Origin: a virus
Virus record (IMG/VR): IMGVR_UViG_3300047172_000080
Location: 15,153 to 79,152 of that record
DNA: 64,000 bases
Reading direction: 5' to 3' (one strand)
Shown: positions 2,187 to 8,895 of the stretch, one piece after another
Layout: every line of letters starts with the position of its first letter
Numbering within the stretch: the stretch's first letter is position 1
Notes under the pieces: generated by a model
Databases searched by the model: none
What the model saw: only the letters and a program-made list of their open reading frames with translations
What the model was told of the DNA's origin: nothing
Translations under genes and position numbers: made by a program

Positions 2187-2222
2187 TGTTTAAAAATATT
2201 TCTGAAGAAAATTTTCTATTTC

Positions 2223-2288
2223 TAATGTTACAATTAAGGTTGATCGAGTGTATATTAACCCTGTTGATCAACCTTAATTGTAACATTA
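2223..2288. repeat. perfect 23-bp inverted repeat with 20-nt spacer
   Basis: taatgttacaattaaggttgatc (2223-2245) and gatcaaccttaattgtaacatta (2266-2288). Confidence 0.95.
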
Positions 2289-2401
2289 TCTATCATAGAA
2301 TCTGAATTAATGTGTATATTTTCTATAAAAGGAGCAGACTCATCAACACCTGCATCTTTAATTAATGAACACCATAATTCCATTGTTTCTGAAACAGTCA
2401 T
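2255..2401 (-). CDS. possible 48-aa hypothetical protein
   Basis: ATGA overlap with the upstream stop; MTVSETMELWCSLIKDAGVDESAPFIENIHINSDSMIDNVTIKVDQQG*. Confidence 0.4.
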   Translation of the reverse strand: MTVSETMELWCSLIKDAGVDESAPFIENIHINSDSMIDNVTIKVDQQG

Positions 2402-4059: not shown

Positions 4060-5358
4060 ATGTCTACCAATTTATCGAATTTTAACAGTAAAGTCAATCT
4101 AGCAAAAGTGGTTAAACAGTTTCCTGAATACAATGACTGGTTACTTCAAGAAGTTAAACCTTATGGTGAATTTGTAAGTAACGCTGATTTTAGTTCGGTT
4201 TGTAATATCTTTGATATTTGGATAGATAAAGATAAAAATCAATTATTATCATCAGAAATCGTGTTTGAGGATATTACAACTAAATATCCACATTTATTAA
4301 AAGATCCTGTTATTTTTAACAATTATAAGCAAAAAACTATTGGTGAAGCTGAGCGAATGGAAAAGCTTTGGAGAAGTGTAGTTGAACATAGCCAAACTGA
4401 ATTAAACTCAAAACTGTACCCTATTAATGAAAGTGGAGGTAAAATCAGTTTAGGTAAGTACTTTACTTACAGTGGTTATCCTGGAGTAGTAGAAAATAAA
4501 TTCGGGCATATATCTGAAAATACTAGAAACCTATTTAATACCATGCAGAAATCATGGTTAAAGCTTCATGGTTTTAGTAAACCTATTATTGTACCTTACT
4601 ATTATACTCCTAAACATATTTCTTATATTGAAGTATTTGATGCCTTGGATGAATCAACGTGGGAAAATAGACGAATACTATATAGAAATGAGTATGCAGG
4701 ATTTGCTGGTACAAGAGGGCATATTTTACCGGACTTTAAAGCCTTAATGAATAGGCAAGGATGTTTATGGAATTACACTTTAGACTACTGGAATAAGACA
4801 GTTGTAACCATAGATGAAGATTGTCCTATTTGGGTACTTTTACATATTTATAAAACAGCAAAGCTTACAAAGTTTGCAATTGATCCGCTGGATATAATTA
4901 AAGATAAAAATCTAGGTAGTTTAGTAGAACCTTATTTAAAAGATCTATCGAAAGAACAAGTTAGAGTTTTACAAGAGAAACTTGAATATACCGATTTATT
5001 AGATAAATGGAAAAACATTAAAAGTACCAGTTACGCAGTAGGTGACATTACGTACTTTAAACGCCCAGAAGGTTACTTCTATATTTATAAAGGCAAAGAA
5101 TTTCAACTGACTAATTTTAGTATTACTTTAGTTGATCGAATAAAAAAAGATGATAAGCCTTTTTATATATTAGATATAATTCAAGGCGATAAAACAATTA
5201 CATTTGAAATTCCTCAAACTAAATTTAATTCCAGGTTAGGACTTATTAATCATTTAAGAGAATTATTTTATGATTGTGATTTAGAGCCTCCAAAAATTTA
5301 TCAACCTAGTGGAGAGCATAAATTAATGAACTTCATCTTTGATTATTTTGATAGCTAA
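4060..5358 (+). CDS. hypothetical protein; the only long convincing + strand gene
   Basis: 432-aa ORF divergent from 2994..4022; no motif recognised with confidence. Confidence 0.7.
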   Translation: MSTNLSNFNSKVNLAKVVKQFPEYNDWLLQEVKPYGEFVSNADFSSVCNIFDIWIDKDKNQLLSSEIVFEDITTKYPHLLKDPVIFNNYKQKTIGEAERMEKLWRSVVEHSQTELNSKLYPINESGGKISLGKYFTYSGYPGVVENKFGHISENTRNLFNTMQKSWLKLHGFSKPIIVPYYYTPKHISYIEVFDALDESTWENRRILYRNEYAGFAGTRGHILPDFKALMNRQGCLWNYTLDYWNKTVVTIDEDCPIWVLLHIYKTAKLTKFAIDPLDIIKDKNLGSLVEPYLKDLSKEQVRVLQEKLEYTDLLDKWKNIKSTSYAVGDITYFKRPEGYFYIYKGKEFQLTNFSITLVDRIKKDDKPFYILDIIQGDKTITFEIPQTKFNSRLGLINHLRELFYDCDLEPPKIYQPSGEHKLMNFIFDYFDS

Positions 5359-5413
5359 ACGAAAGAGGAGTTGGGGCTACTGCTCCTTGCAATAAAATTA
5401 ATACCTAAGGAAG

Positions 5414-5438
5414 TGGATAGGAGTGACCCTCCTATCCA
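5414..5438. terminator. hairpin between convergent genes
   Basis: tggataggag/ctcctatcca perfect 10-bp stem with 5-nt loop. Confidence 0.55.
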
Positions 5439-5446
5439 AGAAACCC

Positions 5447-5632
5447 TTACTTCCCCTTCCGTGCTTCCAACTCTAAAGATCTTCTTCTTGCCGAATTATG
5501 CCAAAATCTTCTTGTTTCTGGTGAAGCATGTTCTTAACCTTCACCTTCTTTAAGTAATGCTATAATTTGTTCATTACTTTCCGCTGCTAAGATCCTCTGA
5601 CGTAGGCCAATCTTCGTTGGTGTTGTCTTCAT
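5447..5632 (-). pseudogene. small ORF interrupted by an in-frame TAA
   Basis: MKTTPTKIGLRQRILAAESNEQIIALLKEGEG*EHASPETRRFWHNSARRRSLELEARKGK*; internal stop at 5534-5536. Confidence 0.55.
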
Positions 5633-5749
5633 ATGGATTTAGGGGTTTACACTTTCTTGTTATATGGGGTTACTATCACTTTTAACTGTCTGTCTTCTTT
5701 ATGTGTGTGAGAGGGCAGATTAGTTAAATTGTCAAAAAAAAAGCGTTTT

Positions 5750-7060
5750 TTATCCAGTATATAGGTTTGATATCCCCCCTACATACTGGACTTTCTCTTG
5801 TGAGAGACATGTAGAAAGAGTACACTTCACAAAGTCGTGTAACTTATACTTCCTACCATGACTAATCGATGTGCATTAGCCATTTTCAGAGGGAACGTGC
5901 GTCATCACCGCATAACCTCTTATTGTTTGAATCTCCGTAGATTCCGCTCTATGCCTATTACGCTATTTATACTCGCATAGACGAGTTGGAAGAGTAGGTG
6001 CTTGCTACTATTGTTGTGATTTTCACAAACACCTACTCACTCCCGCAATCAACTAACTGGCAAATAAAACCGAGAAAAAAATAAATGTTATTGGTTACAT
6101 TGGTTTCAAACTACCTCCTGGAGTCAGGATGTTATGTTAAGCATCCTTAAATGGGGAAAAATGCAACGTGCTGTATCTTGGGGATACAACACGCTTAGTA
6201 GTATAGACCTGCATTGTCAGTCGTTTAGACGGCCAACCGCACGATCTTGGAACTTCTTCCATTTCTAGAAATTATTATTTATTCGCCCTTGCATGTGAGG
6301 AGAGTTTACTTAACTTCTCACATGCAAGGGTTTTCAGGGTTTCCAATTTCCCTAGCTTATTTTCTACTGCCCATAGAGATAACAAGCAAATTCATATGGG
6401 CGCTTCACGACTACTTGGTACTTTAATATTCAACCGTGAATATTGAATATAAAGGTTTTTGATGTGGAGATCTCTAACTCCAGGAAAAATCAACGCATTA
6501 GGAGAGCATCGAGTTTCTGTAAACTCTGTACTCAAAACTGAATTACTTTTTCAAGGTAGTCCTTCCTATTAGGACAATATATATATATATATAATTACTT
6601 ACTGCTTGAAAAGCTAGACAATTCCCCCGCTAATTCAGTATTTATGTGGCTCTATAAGATTTACTTTAATTCAGTAAAGCAGCCGCTTATAGCATAAACA
6701 TGTTTTTAGGTTCATGTCGTAAGTGAAGAGAATTTACCCCTCCTATCAGGCAATGATAAAGTTCTAAATGCTGCTGGTCCAGGTAACCCTTGGATTACTG
6801 CCGTAATTGCCAAACTCGTGTCCTACCACGGCGATGCGTCTAGATCAGCTATAATACACCATCAAGAAAACAGAAGTTCTCCATCTATTGATATACTATA
6901 TTTGCCATGCCGATCAAAATTATAGATTGAAGTCCACTTGTTCACACAACGCATCGCCTAAGCTCAAGCTATAGAAAAGCTCTTTTCGTAACTATTACTA
7001 GAATACGATTCGCCCAACAGCATTCATGGCATCGGTTCAACAAGTGGACTTCAATCTACA
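5750..7060 (-). ncRNA. candidate large (~1.3 kb) structured non-coding RNA
   Basis: No ORF of 60 aa or more. Near-continuous hairpins: 20-bp 6923-6942/7039-7058, 14-bp 6286-6299/6317-6330, 13-bp 5753-5765/5778-5790, 9-bp 5992-6000/6030-6038 and others. Stem mismatches are A-C on + and therefore G-U on the minus strand. Confidence 0.7.
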
Positions 7061-7091
7061 TAATTTATATAAGGGAAATCTTTTCTGACAT

Positions 7092-7244
7092 CTACTTGAT
7101 GTATGTTTGAATGTGGTTGTGTGAAAATCTCTCAATTTGTGGAGCACATTCAGCTTTAAAAGAACGAGTATTTGACCCTACATCTAGGTACATTTTAGCA
7201 CAAGTAGATGCCAGAAAAGTGAAACAGAAACTAACAGCTTCCAT
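7092..7244 (-). CDS. possible 50-aa leader ORF upstream of the structured RNA
   Basis: ATG just downstream of the promoter motif; MEAVSFCFTFLASTCAKMYLDVGSNTRSFKAECAPQIERFSHNHIQTYIK*. Confidence 0.35.
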   Translation of the reverse strand: MEAVSFCFTFLASTCAKMYLDVGSNTRSFKAECAPQIERFSHNHIQTYIK

Positions 7245-7251
7245 TACTTAT

Positions 7252-7293
7252 TATTATACCAAATATATACTGTTTATTCGGGGAGGGGAGGGG
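7252..7293 (-). promoter_or_regulatory. CCCC-N23-TGGTATAATA promoter, copy 1
   Basis: Extended -10 (TGGTATAAT) with a C-tract exactly 23 nt upstream; five copies in the window. Confidence 0.75.
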
Positions 7294-8001
7294 TTAATAC
7301 CCATTATACCCCCCATAAGCACAATTATCTTGTCCATTATTGCCTTGGACAGTATTAAAGGGGCGGGGGTATGAATTAGGAACATTACTGCGCTTATTAG
7401 CTGCCCCTGTTTCAATAGAATCGGGATTAGGACTAAAAGCAGCGTATTCAATATTAAAATATGACTTACCGAGAATTGAAGTTCTAGGTTTAATGCTAAT
7501 AGCTTGATTTACCAAGCCTACAGCCCACACATCTAACTCATAAGTACCTTCTAACAAGGTTCCTGTTACTGAATTAGGAATAAAAATGACATAATGGTTA
7601 CAATCTTTAGAATCTGTGTAGATACCGTTGTTTAATATACCTGCCCAAGTATAGGTGATAAGATATTGAGAAGCTTTAACAATTACATTCAATGTGTACT
7701 TGGTTAAATCTATAGGCTTTCCATCTAAATATAGAAATGCGTCATAAATAACATCTTCTCCCTGATACCATACAGCAGAAGCATGATCTGAGCCAATAAA
7801 GTTAGAGCCTGGAATTCCTAAAGTATTTAAATCAGATTGTGGAATATTAGGATTATTAACTCTAGGAATAAGTTTAGAAGTTATTGGTATACAATTATCA
7901 AGTGGAATAGAACCTGAAGTAGGAGGGCAAGGATTACTACCTAGTTCAAAAGTAGTAGGTTGTGCAATGTCTACTTCATAGTAAGGGGGAGTTACAGGCA
8001 T
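7294..8001 (-). CDS. putative virion protein with BppU-like/Ig-like domain
   Basis: YQGEDVIY...DGKPIDLT...T.TL.EG.Y.LDV pattern; last gene of the tail module. Confidence 0.45.
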   Translation of the reverse strand: MPVTPPYYEVDIAQPTTFELGSNPCPPTSGSIPLDNCIPITSKLIPRVNNPNIPQSDLNTLGIPGSNFIGSDHASAVWYQGEDVIYDAFLYLDGKPIDLTKYTLNVIVKASQYLITYTWAGILNNGIYTDSKDCNHYVIFIPNSVTGTLLEGTYELDVWAVGLVNQAISIKPRTSILGKSYFNIEYAAFSPNPDSIETGAANKRSNVPNSYPRPFNTVQGNNGQDNCAYGGYNGY

Positions 8002-8409: not shown

Positions 8410-8895
8410 TTAGGCACCAGCCGTAGCTTCAACCGGAGGCTGTTCCTGGCGGTTGGGGCGATTCATCGGAACACGGAGTTCCTTGCCCAACGGAGCGTGC
8501 GGGGTTTCGTTGGTTTTACTGGGAATCACCGAATCCTCGTGGACCTGCTGAATTTGTCCACGGAGTTCCTGATTCTTTTCAGCCAACTCTTCCGCCGCAG
8601 AGGCGATCTTCCCGGCTTCCCGTTTGATCACTTCTTCCGAACGCTGAATTTGAACCTCAGGTTGGACCGTCATGGACGGCTTCCTGAAGTTGCTCAGCAC
8701 GGCGGCGAACTTCTGTTTCATGGTGAACATGGCCTGTTTCGCGGTATGAACCACGACAGCCCCATAGTATTGGAACCCAAGGGTTCCCGCGACACCGATT
8801 CCAACACATCCTGCCGCCGCAAGACAAGCAACCGGCTTGCTCATGACGACATTGCGATTGGTTCCGATCTCAACGTTGATTGTAGGAGTGTCCAT
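8410..8895 (-). CDS. GC-rich membrane-anchored coiled-coil protein (likely recent acquisition)
   Basis: TM-like VACLAAAGCVGIGVAGTLG followed by a coiled coil; visibly higher GC than the flanks. Confidence 0.65.
   Translation of the reverse strand: MDTPTINVEIGTNRNVVMSKPVACLAAAGCVGIGVAGTLGFQYYGAVVVHTAKQAMFTMKQKFAAVLSNFRKPSMTVQPEVQIQRSEEVIKREAGKIASAAEELAEKNQELRGQIQQVHEDSVIPSKTNETPHAPLGKELRVPMNRPNRQEQPPVEATAGA

What the first reader, a model, noticed from the sequence alone, without database searches (positions are those of the whole stretch)
5750..7060. Candidate giant (~1.3 kb) structured non-coding RNA in a jumbo-type phage
Seen: in an otherwise gene-dense genome, 1.3 kb has no ORF and is tiled with roughly twenty stems. 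Examples: 5753-5765/5778-5790, 5858-5866/5875-5883, 5948-5954/5975-5981, 5992-6000/6030-6038, 6167-6177/6183-6193, 6286-6299/6317-6330, 6537-6545/6631-6639, 6923-6942/7039-7058. Several are nested into multibranch domains. Stem imperfections are repeatedly A-C on + (5761/5782, 5861/5880, 6171/6189), i.e. G-U on the minus strand, which points to selection on a minus-strand RNA rather than on DNA palindromes. A promoter at 7252-7293 points into the region and a T-run follows at ~5734-5742. Known: phages carry large ncRNAs such as GOLLD and ROOL, which are shorter, and I see no hallmark of them or of self-splicing introns. Inference: possibly an undescribed large RNA class.
Basis: partly seen in the sequence, partly recalled or inferred. 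Interest (0 to 1): 0.9.

Follow-up and report, generated by a model that had tools for sequence, protein, structure and literature searches.

The report
Phage non-coding RNA operon with pistol
A gene-free 1.5 kb of an uncultured freshwater jumbo phage is most likely one promoter-to-terminator unit. It would make a chain of tightly folded RNAs of no known family plus an odd-shaped copy of the pistol self-cutting ribozyme, and it sits where related phages keep tmRNA, tRNA or GOLLD RNA genes.

Summary
Window 5359-7293 has no ORF over 59 aa, and no stop-codon reassignment opens it. The minus strand of 5915-7246 folds far better than shuffles (z -8.7; plus strand -5.4; three coding controls -0.2 to -1.3).

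A promoter motif used five times in the window, always on the minus strand, points into the region at 7293-7250. A hairpin plus U9 ends it near 5735.

Its core and pseudoknot are intact, but 12 extra bases sit at the cleavage junction.

GOLLD, ROOL and tmRNA models find nothing, even at E<=10. In 14 of 20 related phages the same slot holds a tmRNA. Two relatives carry a GOLLD RNA followed directly by a pistol ribozyme.

Confident base pairs span at most 370 nt, and one 430-nt stretch is barely structured. I therefore read it as an RNA operon: two ~140-nt stem-closed modules, a 370-nt multibranched domain, hairpins, the pistol and a tail. I do not read it as one giant RNA.

No homologue of the RNA body was found, so covariation is untested. 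Earlier notes of this scan describe GOLLD-pistol islands and stem-closed modules on other phage DNA.

The parts
7250..7293 (-). Phage promoter: C-rich element CCCCTCCCCTCCCC, about 22 nt, then extended -10 TGGTATAAT. Inferred transcription start near 7246.
   Evidence: The same motif occurs five times in the window, all on the minus strand in intergenic gaps (45906, 42713, 9399, 8979, 7261). The C-rich part has 2 matches against 0.01 expected. It is conserved in L024 and G021. In G021 it precedes a protein gene. L030 has a related but looser form, a C7 run then TGTTATAAT, in front of its RNA island.
7223..7245 (-). Small 5' hairpin (10 bp) at the predicted transcript start.
   Evidence: MFE.
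7080..7219 (-). Module M1: about 100 nt closed by a 19-bp helix (1 G-U).
   Evidence: Inverted repeat I2; fold z -4.8; pair probability 0.96.
6921..7060 (-). Module M2: about 96 nt (three-way junction) closed by a 21-22 bp helix, of which 20 bp are perfectly complementary.
   Evidence: Inverted repeat I1; fold z -6.6; pair probability 0.98. No copy elsewhere in the record or in IMG/VR. No structural homologue in 25 related records.
6843..6915 (-). D3: 73-nt extended hairpin.
6490..6842 (-). Weakly structured linker with short hairpins and a (TA)9 tract at 6578-6596.
   Evidence: 6490-6920, which also includes the D3 hairpin, gave z -1.7. There are few confident pairs.
6116..6485 (-). D4: 370-nt multibranched domain closed by a 12-14 bp helix. 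It is the largest single fold and the best candidate for a 'large RNA'.
   Evidence: z -7.3; closing helix p 0.96. It contains a perfect 14-bp hairpin at 6286-6330.
6155..6195 (-). Terminator-like hairpin (13 bp) followed by GCAUUUUU, inside D4. Possibly a partial terminator.
5988..6115 (-). D5 (6059-6115) and D6 (18-bp hairpin 5988-6043). D6 ends 1 nt before the pistol.
5911..5986 (-). Pistol-type self-cleaving ribozyme motif with a variant P3/junction. Predicted cut between G5916 and U5915.
   Evidence: RF02679 at 39.6 bits, cut-off 34.5. P1, the 6-bp pseudoknot UCUAUG/CAUAGA, the AUAAAUA linker, GAGCG and P2 GCGUA/UAUGC can all be read from the sequence. A 12-nt insert separates the P3 hairpin from the GU junction.
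5735..5915 (-). 3' tail (predicted 3' cleavage product, about 180 nt): three hairpins. The last is 5752-5791 (14 bp), followed by AUAAAAAACGC and then U9 (5742-5734).
   Evidence: z -4.2; sequence.

Best explanation
The stretch is one non-coding transcription unit on the minus strand, about 1.5 kb long. It starts at a phage promoter (7293-7250, start near 7246) and ends at a hairpin plus U9 near 5735.

It lies in the slot between two conserved convergent genes where related freshwater jumbo phages keep tmRNA, tRNA-Met or tRNAs.

The transcript is a chain of independently folding RNAs:
- two ~140-nt modules, each closed by a 19-22 bp helix;
- a 73-nt hairpin and a loosely folded linker;
- a 370-nt multibranched domain and two hairpins;
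- a pistol-type ribozyme and a 180-nt tail.

Inferred processing: the long closing helices are cut by a host RNase III-type enzyme, which releases the modules much as rRNAs are released from their operon. If the pistol is active, it cuts at G5916|U5915. That would separate the structured RNAs from the terminator tail, leaving the upstream RNA with a 2',3'-cyclic phosphate end.

The unit is the positional and architectural counterpart of the promoter-GOLLD-pistol-modules-terminator islands of related phages. Its RNAs belong to no known family.

Shown: absence of coding capacity, excess minus-strand folding, the promoter motif, the pistol motif and the synteny. Inferred: transcription, processing, and any function. 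My guess at function is help with, or interference in, translation during infection, as is supposed for the tmRNA, tRNAs and GOLLD in this slot.
For: - No ORF, and no genetic code opens one.
- z -8.7 on the minus strand, -5.4 on the plus strand, about -1 in coding controls.
- GC is 0.36-0.39 against 0.29-0.34 in most neighbouring 600-nt windows, as expected of RNA genes in an AT-rich genome.
- The promoter motif recurs five times on the minus strand and is conserved in relatives.
- Pistol motif above the Rfam cut-off on the same strand. Its pseudoknot covaries with the pistols of relatives: UCUAUG/CAUAGA here, ACUUGG/CCAAGA in L030 and L052.
- Both flanking genes are homologous to those of L005 and about 20 further records. 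Their slot holds a tmRNA in 14 of 20, tRNAs in one, and an unassigned ~270-nt promoter-terminator RNA in the closest relative, L024.
- L030 and L052 carry GOLLD (141 and 150 bits) 9-11 nt upstream of a pistol. L030's lies inside a 2.2-kb ORF-poor island that has a related promoter-like motif (C7 run then TGTTATAAT), a T-run end and 17-bp stem-closed modules.
- Modularity: confident pairs span at most 370 nt, the domains have separate z-scores, and the middle is weak.
Against:
- No homologue of any part except the pistol and the promoter was found, so there is no covariation for any stem.
- The pistol has 12 extra nt between P3 and the GU junction. Harris et al. 2015 (PMC4604425) state that this junction length is strictly conserved, so it may be inactive.
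- Long near-perfect stems could also be young DNA palindromes.
- A terminator-like hairpin at 6195-6165 could end most transcripts before the pistol.
- Thermodynamic folding cannot see tertiary contacts that might join the domains into one particle.
Confidence: 0.55

Rival explanations
1. One giant ornate RNA of a new class. It would be about 1.33 kb (7246-5916), or its 370-nt core D4 plus accessory domains. It would work as a single particle, a functional analogue of GOLLD or ROOL, with its 3' end made by the pistol ribozyme.
For: - A single promoter and no internal copy of the promoter motif.
- Very strong overall z.
- The pistol lies 1 nt after the last hairpin, as it lies 9-11 nt after GOLLD in L030 and L052.
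- GOLLD itself is built of two domains joined by a variable linker (PMC12286853), so modular folding does not exclude a single particle.
- The slot is the tRNA/tmRNA neighbourhood typical of GOLLD and ROOL.
Against: - No confident long-range helix joins the domains, other than a 5-bp end-to-end pairing.
- 6490-6920 is barely structured.
- M1 and M2 are closed by 19-22 bp near-perfect helices, which look like excision stalks rather than an ornate core.
- There is an internal terminator-like hairpin.
- No homologues, so no conserved core can be shown.
Confidence: 0.2
2. A highly divergent GOLLD RNA, with a 3' domain beyond the reach of the covariance model, followed by its pistol.
For: GOLLD-pistol units occur in two related phages. 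Earlier notes of this scan report divergent GOLLDs next to pistols in other genomes (unchecked AI notes).
Against: - RF02032 gives no hit at E<=10 in the 2.3-kb region, in the 536 nt just upstream of the pistol, or in the whole 79-kb record.
- The GOLLD 3' region is described as universally conserved (PMC12286853).
- There is no BLAST or nhmmer similarity to the L030 or L052 GOLLDs.
Confidence: 0.04
3. A DNA-level or decaying element: a replication origin, remnants of mobile inverted-repeat elements, or a dead RNA island with a broken pistol. In this reading the stems are palindromes with no RNA function.
For: - 20 bp of perfect and 19 bp of near-perfect inverted repeats, and a (TA)9 tract.
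- The plus strand also folds better than shuffles (z -5.4).
- The pistol junction is aberrant.
- No conservation in any relative.
Against: - The region is richer in GC than its flanks, not poorer.
- There are no iterons or direct repeats.
- There are no other copies of the inverted repeats in the record or in IMG/VR.
- The minus strand folds 54 kcal/mol better, with more G-U pairs.
- An intact promoter points in.
Confidence: 0.12
4. A long structured leader or a small-protein locus. The candidate ORFs are the 50-aa ORF 7244-7092(-), which starts 8 nt after the -10 box, and the 32-aa ORF 5632-5534(-). The RNA structure would be regulatory.
For: The ORFs exist. The first would be leaderless from the predicted start.
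Against: - No Pfam match.
- No Shine-Dalgarno sequence.
- The 50-aa ORF runs through the 5' arm, the interior and the 3' arm of M1.
- More than 1 kb of structure with no downstream gene.
Confidence: 0.05

Closest known systems
GOLLD-pistol RNA islands of related freshwater phages (L030 = IMGVR_UViG_3300043803_002473; L052 = IMGVR_UViG_3300042453_005575); GOLLD = Rfam RF02032
   Same: Same phage group, and the same strand as the tRNA and tmRNA genes. In L030 a related, looser promoter-like motif leads into an ORF-poor 1.7-2.2 kb island, with a large structured RNA directly upstream of a pistol motif, stem-closed modules and a T-run end.
   Different: The window has no GOLLD 3' domain and no sequence similarity outside the pistol. 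Its stem-closed modules lie upstream of the pistol, not downstream. Its pistol has an aberrant junction.
Pistol self-cleaving ribozyme (Rfam RF02679; Harris et al. 2015, PMC4604425)
   Same: P1, the 6-bp pseudoknot, the A-rich linker, GAGCG, P2 and a GU before P2'. The score is above the curated cut-off. About 45 nt are 91-93% identical to the 60-bit pistols of G006, G007, G008, G031 and G032.
   Different: A 12-nt insert lies between the P3 hairpin and the GU junction, so the motif is 76 nt long against 68-69 nt in all seven relatives. Activity is unknown.
RNase III processing stalks (16S/23S stems of rRNA operons; phage T7 early-transcript sites). Recalled knowledge.
   Same: Long (19-22 bp), nearly perfect helices formed by the two ends of a unit inside a polycistronic RNA.
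   Different: No cleavage data. The cargo is unknown small RNAs, not rRNA or mRNA.
Phage tmRNA / tRNA-Met genes in the syntenic slot of relatives (RF00023)
   Same: Same position between the homologues of the 432-aa and 235-aa genes, and the same strand.
   Different: No tmRNA or tRNA signal in the window or in the whole 79-kb record.
ROOL RNA (a large ornate RNA of phages and prophages near tRNA islands; PMC5737381)
   Same: A large structured non-coding RNA of a phage, in a tRNA-type neighbourhood.
   Different: No Rfam hit to any large-RNA family.

Membership tests
Pistol ribozyme (RF02679) | Covariance-model score at or above the curated cut-off. | tested here: met
   39.6 bits against 34.5; E 3.4e-5 in the 2.3-kb search.
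Pistol ribozyme (RF02679) | P1 hairpin whose loop forms a 6-bp pseudoknot with the P2-P3 junction strand. | tested here: met
   UCUAUG (5981-5976) pairs with CAUAGA (5953-5948), 6 of 6 Watson-Crick. It covaries against ACUUGG/CCAAGA in L030 and L052.
Pistol ribozyme (RF02679) | Highly conserved linker and core nucleotides (AUAAAUA, GAGCG). | tested here: met
   Identical to the consensus in the cmscan alignment.
Pistol ribozyme (RF02679) | P3 directly abutting a junction of strictly conserved length (2 nt, usually GU) before P2' (PMC4604425). | tested here: not met
   The P3 hairpin 5944-5929 is followed by 12 nt (AAACAAUAAGAG) before G5916-U5915. The model aligns P3 with four deletions and non-canonical pairs. 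All seven relatives have the standard length.
Pistol ribozyme (RF02679) | Self-cleavage. | not testable with these tools
   Needs an in vitro transcription and cleavage assay.
GOLLD RNA (RF02032) | Universally conserved 3' domain that matches the family model. | tested here: not met
   No hit at E<=10. The positive controls L030 and G004 score 141 and 150 bits.
GOLLD RNA (RF02032) | Phage or prophage location near tRNA islands. | tested here: met
   The slot holds tmRNA or tRNA in relatives. This concerns context only, not membership.
ROOL and other large Rfam RNAs | A match to the family model. | tested here: not met
   The only family in Rfam 15 that reaches its gathering score in the window is Pistol. 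Nothing relevant appears at E<=10.
tmRNA (RF00023) | tRNA-like domain, tag reading frame, and a model or ARAGORN hit. | tested here: not met
   ARAGORN finds none. RF00023 finds none at E<=10 in the record. No tag-like frame or T-loop motif.
RNase III-type stem-closed modules | About 20 bp of nearly uninterrupted duplex formed by the two ends of a unit. | tested here: met
   M1: 19 bp with 1 G-U. M2: 21-22 bp. Pair probabilities 0.96-0.98.
RNase III-type stem-closed modules | Cleavage by RNase III, and stems kept by compensatory change. | not testable with these tools
   No homologues and no RNA data.

The most novel reading that the evidence does not exclude
The 370-nt multibranched domain D4 is the core of a previously undescribed class of large phage RNA, alone or together with its neighbours as a ~1.3-kb particle. 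In this lineage it has taken the place of tmRNA or GOLLD in the 'translation RNA' slot. It would be matured by an unusual pistol variant that tolerates a 12-nt junction insert.
Probability: 0.2. Interest if true: 0.85.

Novelty: new variant of a known kind. Interest (0 to 1): 0.5.

Why it matters
Self-cleaving ribozymes such as pistol have no established biological job. The giant phage RNAs GOLLD and ROOL are known to build cages, but their function is also unknown.

This phage group puts three things side by side in one genomic slot: tmRNA/tRNA in most members, GOLLD plus pistol in two, and here an orphan set of strongly folded RNAs plus a pistol variant. That gives a concrete and testable role for pistol, namely maturation of non-coding RNA operons in phages. 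It also suggests that quite different large RNAs may be interchangeable there.

If the pistol copy is active, its 12-nt junction insert would also widen the known sequence space of the class.

The weakness is that the RNA body is an orphan. Without relatives or RNA data, its reality as a functional RNA rests on folding statistics and context alone.

Tried and rejected
- **Alternative genetic codes.** No single stop reassignment opens the region.
- **tmRNA in disguise.** No ARAGORN or RF00023 hit, no T-loop, no tag-like frame.
- **Divergent GOLLD.** Three Rfam searches at E<=10, one restricted to the 536 nt upstream of the pistol, gave nothing.
- **Homologue hunts.** All of these found only the pistol core, the promoter or a chance 18-mer:
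  - INPHARED phages by blastn;
  - blastn and nhmmer against 45 related loci;
  - whole-record BLAST of 29+2+1 related IMG/VR records;
  - IMG/VR pattern scans with the M2 stem and the 6286-6330 hairpin;
  - a single-sequence covariance model of M2 against 25 records;
  - the 432-aa family in GTDB genome contigs.
- **Closer relatives.** Proteins at 69% and 49% identity to the 432-aa flank exist (P0002, P0003).
- **M1 and M2 as paralogues.** The M2 model hits M1 at only 13-14 bits, on both strands. That reflects the long stem only, so they are not paralogues.
The 10-bp complement 6949-6958/6830-6839 is real. By my estimate about one such match is expected by chance in 1.5 kb, so I did not count it.
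- **G-U asymmetry.** 59 against 38 G-U pairs is not significant on its own once base composition is allowed for (my rough binomial estimate, p about 0.07).
- **Small ORFs.** No Pfam match.

Full report
**Setting**

The window is bases 15153-79152 of a 79-kb IMG/VR virus record that CheckV rates 39% complete. That implies a phage of about 200 kb. Its relatives are freshwater-metagenome phages of up to 204 kb.

Nearly all genes lie on the minus strand. The finding sits between the 432-aa ORF 4060-5358(+) and the 235-aa ORF 7294-8001(-), which converge on each other. Neither has a Pfam family.

**Observation**

The gap 5359-7293 has no ORF above 59 aa. Every frame carries many copies of all three stop codons, so no reassigned code opens it.

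| Stretch (minus strand unless noted) | z-score |
|---|---|
| 5915-7246 | -8.7 |
| 5915-7246, plus strand | -5.4 |
| three coding controls, same length | -0.2, -0.9, -1.3 |
| M1 | -4.8 |
| M2 | -6.6 |
| D4 | -7.3 |
| 3' tail | -4.2 |
| 6490-6920 | -1.7 |

In 200-nt sliding windows the minus-strand z is mostly between -1.2 and -4.7 from about 5300 to 7100 (two windows sit near zero) and stays near zero from 7000 to about 7800. The region is richer in GC (0.36-0.39) than the genes directly flanking it (0.29-0.34), as structured RNA genes are in AT-rich genomes; this argues against an origin-type AT-rich element.

**Direction and ends**

The motif CCCCTCCCC(T), about 22 nt, then TGGTATAAT occurs five times in the window. 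All five are on the minus strand and in intergenic gaps. At least three lie directly upstream of ORFs (8895, 9345, 42684), and the fifth points into the gene-free region at 7293-7250.

The motif is conserved after the 235-aa homologue in L024. In G021 it precedes a protein gene. L030 has a related but looser version, a C7 run then TGTTATAAT, in front of its RNA island. It is therefore a promoter class of this phage group, and the inferred start is near 7246.

At the far end, a 14-bp hairpin (5791-5752) is followed by AUAAAAAACGC and U9. A second terminator-like hairpin with a U5 tail lies at 6195-6165.

**Known element inside**

Rfam finds one family in the whole window: Pistol (RF02679) on the minus strand at 5986-5911, at 39.6 bits against a cut-off of 34.5.

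Read from the sequence, these features are present:
- P1;
- a perfect 6-bp pseudoknot, UCUAUG/CAUAGA;
- the AUAAAUA linker and GAGCG;
- P2, GCGUA/UAUGC;
- a GU before P2'.

The pseudoknot covaries with that of the pistols in L030 and L052. About 45 nt are 91-93% identical to the 60-bit pistols of five other phages.

However, 12 nt separate the P3 hairpin from the GU junction. Harris et al. 2015 state that the length of this junction is strictly conserved (PMC4604425), and all seven pistols in relatives have the standard 68-69 nt. So this is a pistol by model score and core, but with one defining feature not met, and its activity is open. The predicted cut is G5916|U5915. The thermodynamic fold also offers a competing 5-bp helix, 5920-5916/5892-5888, which would hide that site.

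**What it is not**

- GOLLD, ROOL, tmRNA and introns give no hit even at E<=10, including a search limited to the 536 nt upstream of the pistol.
- ARAGORN finds no tRNA or tmRNA.
- There is no tag-like frame or T-loop.

**Context in relatives**

Both flanking genes have homologues in about 20 IMG/VR records, in the same convergent arrangement. Between them:
- 14 of 20 carry a tmRNA on the strand equivalent to the window's minus strand, often with tRNA-Met;
- one carries two tRNAs;
- the closest relative, L024 (39% identity in the 432-aa protein), carries the same promoter, an unassigned structured RNA of about 270 nt (the 546-nt gap folds with z -5.4) and a clean intrinsic terminator.

Two further relatives (L030/G003 and L052/G004) have, a few kb away, a GOLLD RNA (141 and 150 bits) ending 9-11 nt before a pistol ribozyme. 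They share 780 nt at 82% identity that runs from GOLLD into the pistol. The L030 unit lies in a 2.2-kb ORF-poor island that begins with a C7 run and TGTTATAAT, ends at a T-run and contains modules closed by 17-bp stems. Pistols occur in 7 of 28 related records. In the G007 group, the pistol sits between protein genes with other conserved flanks.

The literature I could search describes GOLLD and ROOL near tRNA islands, but not a link between GOLLD and pistol.

**Anatomy**

On the minus strand, from 5' to 3':

| Element | Coordinates | Notes |
|---|---|---|
| 5' hairpin | 7245-7223 | 10 bp |
| M1 | 7219-7080 | 19-bp closing helix |
| M2 | 7060-6921 | 21-22 bp closing helix |
| D3 | 6915-6843 | 73-nt hairpin |
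| loose linker | 6842-6490 | contains (TA)9 |
| D4 | 6485-6116 | 370 nt, multibranched |
| D5, D6 | 6115-5988 | hairpins |
| pistol | 5986-5911 | variant junction |
| tail | 5915-5735 | about 180 nt, ends in the terminator |

At pair probability >=0.7 no helix spans more than 370 nt, except a 5-bp pairing of the chosen ends. M1 and M2 are not paralogues.

**Reading**

The evidence fits a promoter-to-terminator operon of separate structured RNAs better than it fits one 1.3-kb ornate RNA. The reasons are the autonomous domains, the long near-perfect closing helices that resemble RNase III stalks (recalled knowledge of rRNA operons and T7), the weak middle, and the modular, reshuffled content of the same kind of island in relatives.

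The pistol, if active, would detach the structured RNAs from the terminator tail and give them a cyclic-phosphate 3' end. This is inference.

A single giant particle is not excluded, because GOLLD itself is built of two domains joined by an unresolved linker.

**Limits**

- No homologue of the RNA body exists in anything I could reach.
- So neither covariation nor expression was tested. Functional status rests on folding statistics, promoter, ribozyme motif, GC content and synteny.

**Earlier notes of this scan**

AI notes had flagged this same stretch and the promoter class. On other phage DNA they had described GOLLD-pistol islands with orphan RNAs and stem-closed modules. I used them as leads only. 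I reproduced the GOLLD-pistol adjacency independently on L030 and L052, and the 'divergent GOLLD' reading was tested here and failed.

**Verdict**

This is a real non-coding unit, probably transcribed from the minus strand, with an unusual pistol copy and orphan structured RNAs. I rate it a new variant of the known phage RNA-island theme. Interest is moderate, and would be high if D4 or the whole transcript proves to be a new large RNA class.

Noticed in passing
L012 7462-7869(-), L016, L029, L038 and others: The tmRNAs of these phages encode unusually long tags of about 30 aa with a conserved ...EADA.L......AE.LAA* pattern. One example is ANENSFAMTVEEADALLNSFEFEDAEALAA. ARAGORN missed several of them that Rfam found (L041, L045, L046).
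   Followed up: partly
L030 11423-11904(-); L052 10511-~11304(-): A GOLLD RNA (141 and 150 bits) ends 9-11 nt before a pistol ribozyme. The two phages share the whole unit at 82% identity. I found no paper that links the two families.
   Followed up: partly
L061 (G007) 5150-5830(-); L070, L071: In five phages a 60-bit pistol sits between protein genes. On both sides it is flanked by conserved non-coding sequence that matches no Rfam family.
   Followed up: no
L024 7520-7835(-): The closest relative has, in the same slot, the same promoter, a structured RNA of about 270 nt with no Rfam match, and a clean intrinsic terminator (stem ACACACACUCG.../...CGAGUGUGUGU followed by U6).
   Followed up: partly
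window 8410-8895(-): A 161-aa ORF with GC 0.50 in a genome of about 0.31 GC. It has its own copy of the C-rich promoter and a terminator hairpin, and a hydrophobic N-terminal segment. It looks like a recently acquired foreign gene.
   Followed up: partly
window 2221-2290: A long hairpin in the 210-nt gap between ORFs 1767-2186 and 2398-2958. The M2 model picked it up at 24 bits on both strands, which reflects long-stem architecture only.
   Followed up: no
L005 9476-9513(+); L046 4097-4133(-): abiF RNA motif (RF03085) above the cut-off in two related phages.
   Followed up: no
window 5300-5640(-): The stretch between the U9 terminator and the end of the 432-aa gene also folds well on the minus strand (z -3.1 to -4.7). 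It holds a 32-aa ORF (5632-5534) with no Pfam match.
   Followed up: partly
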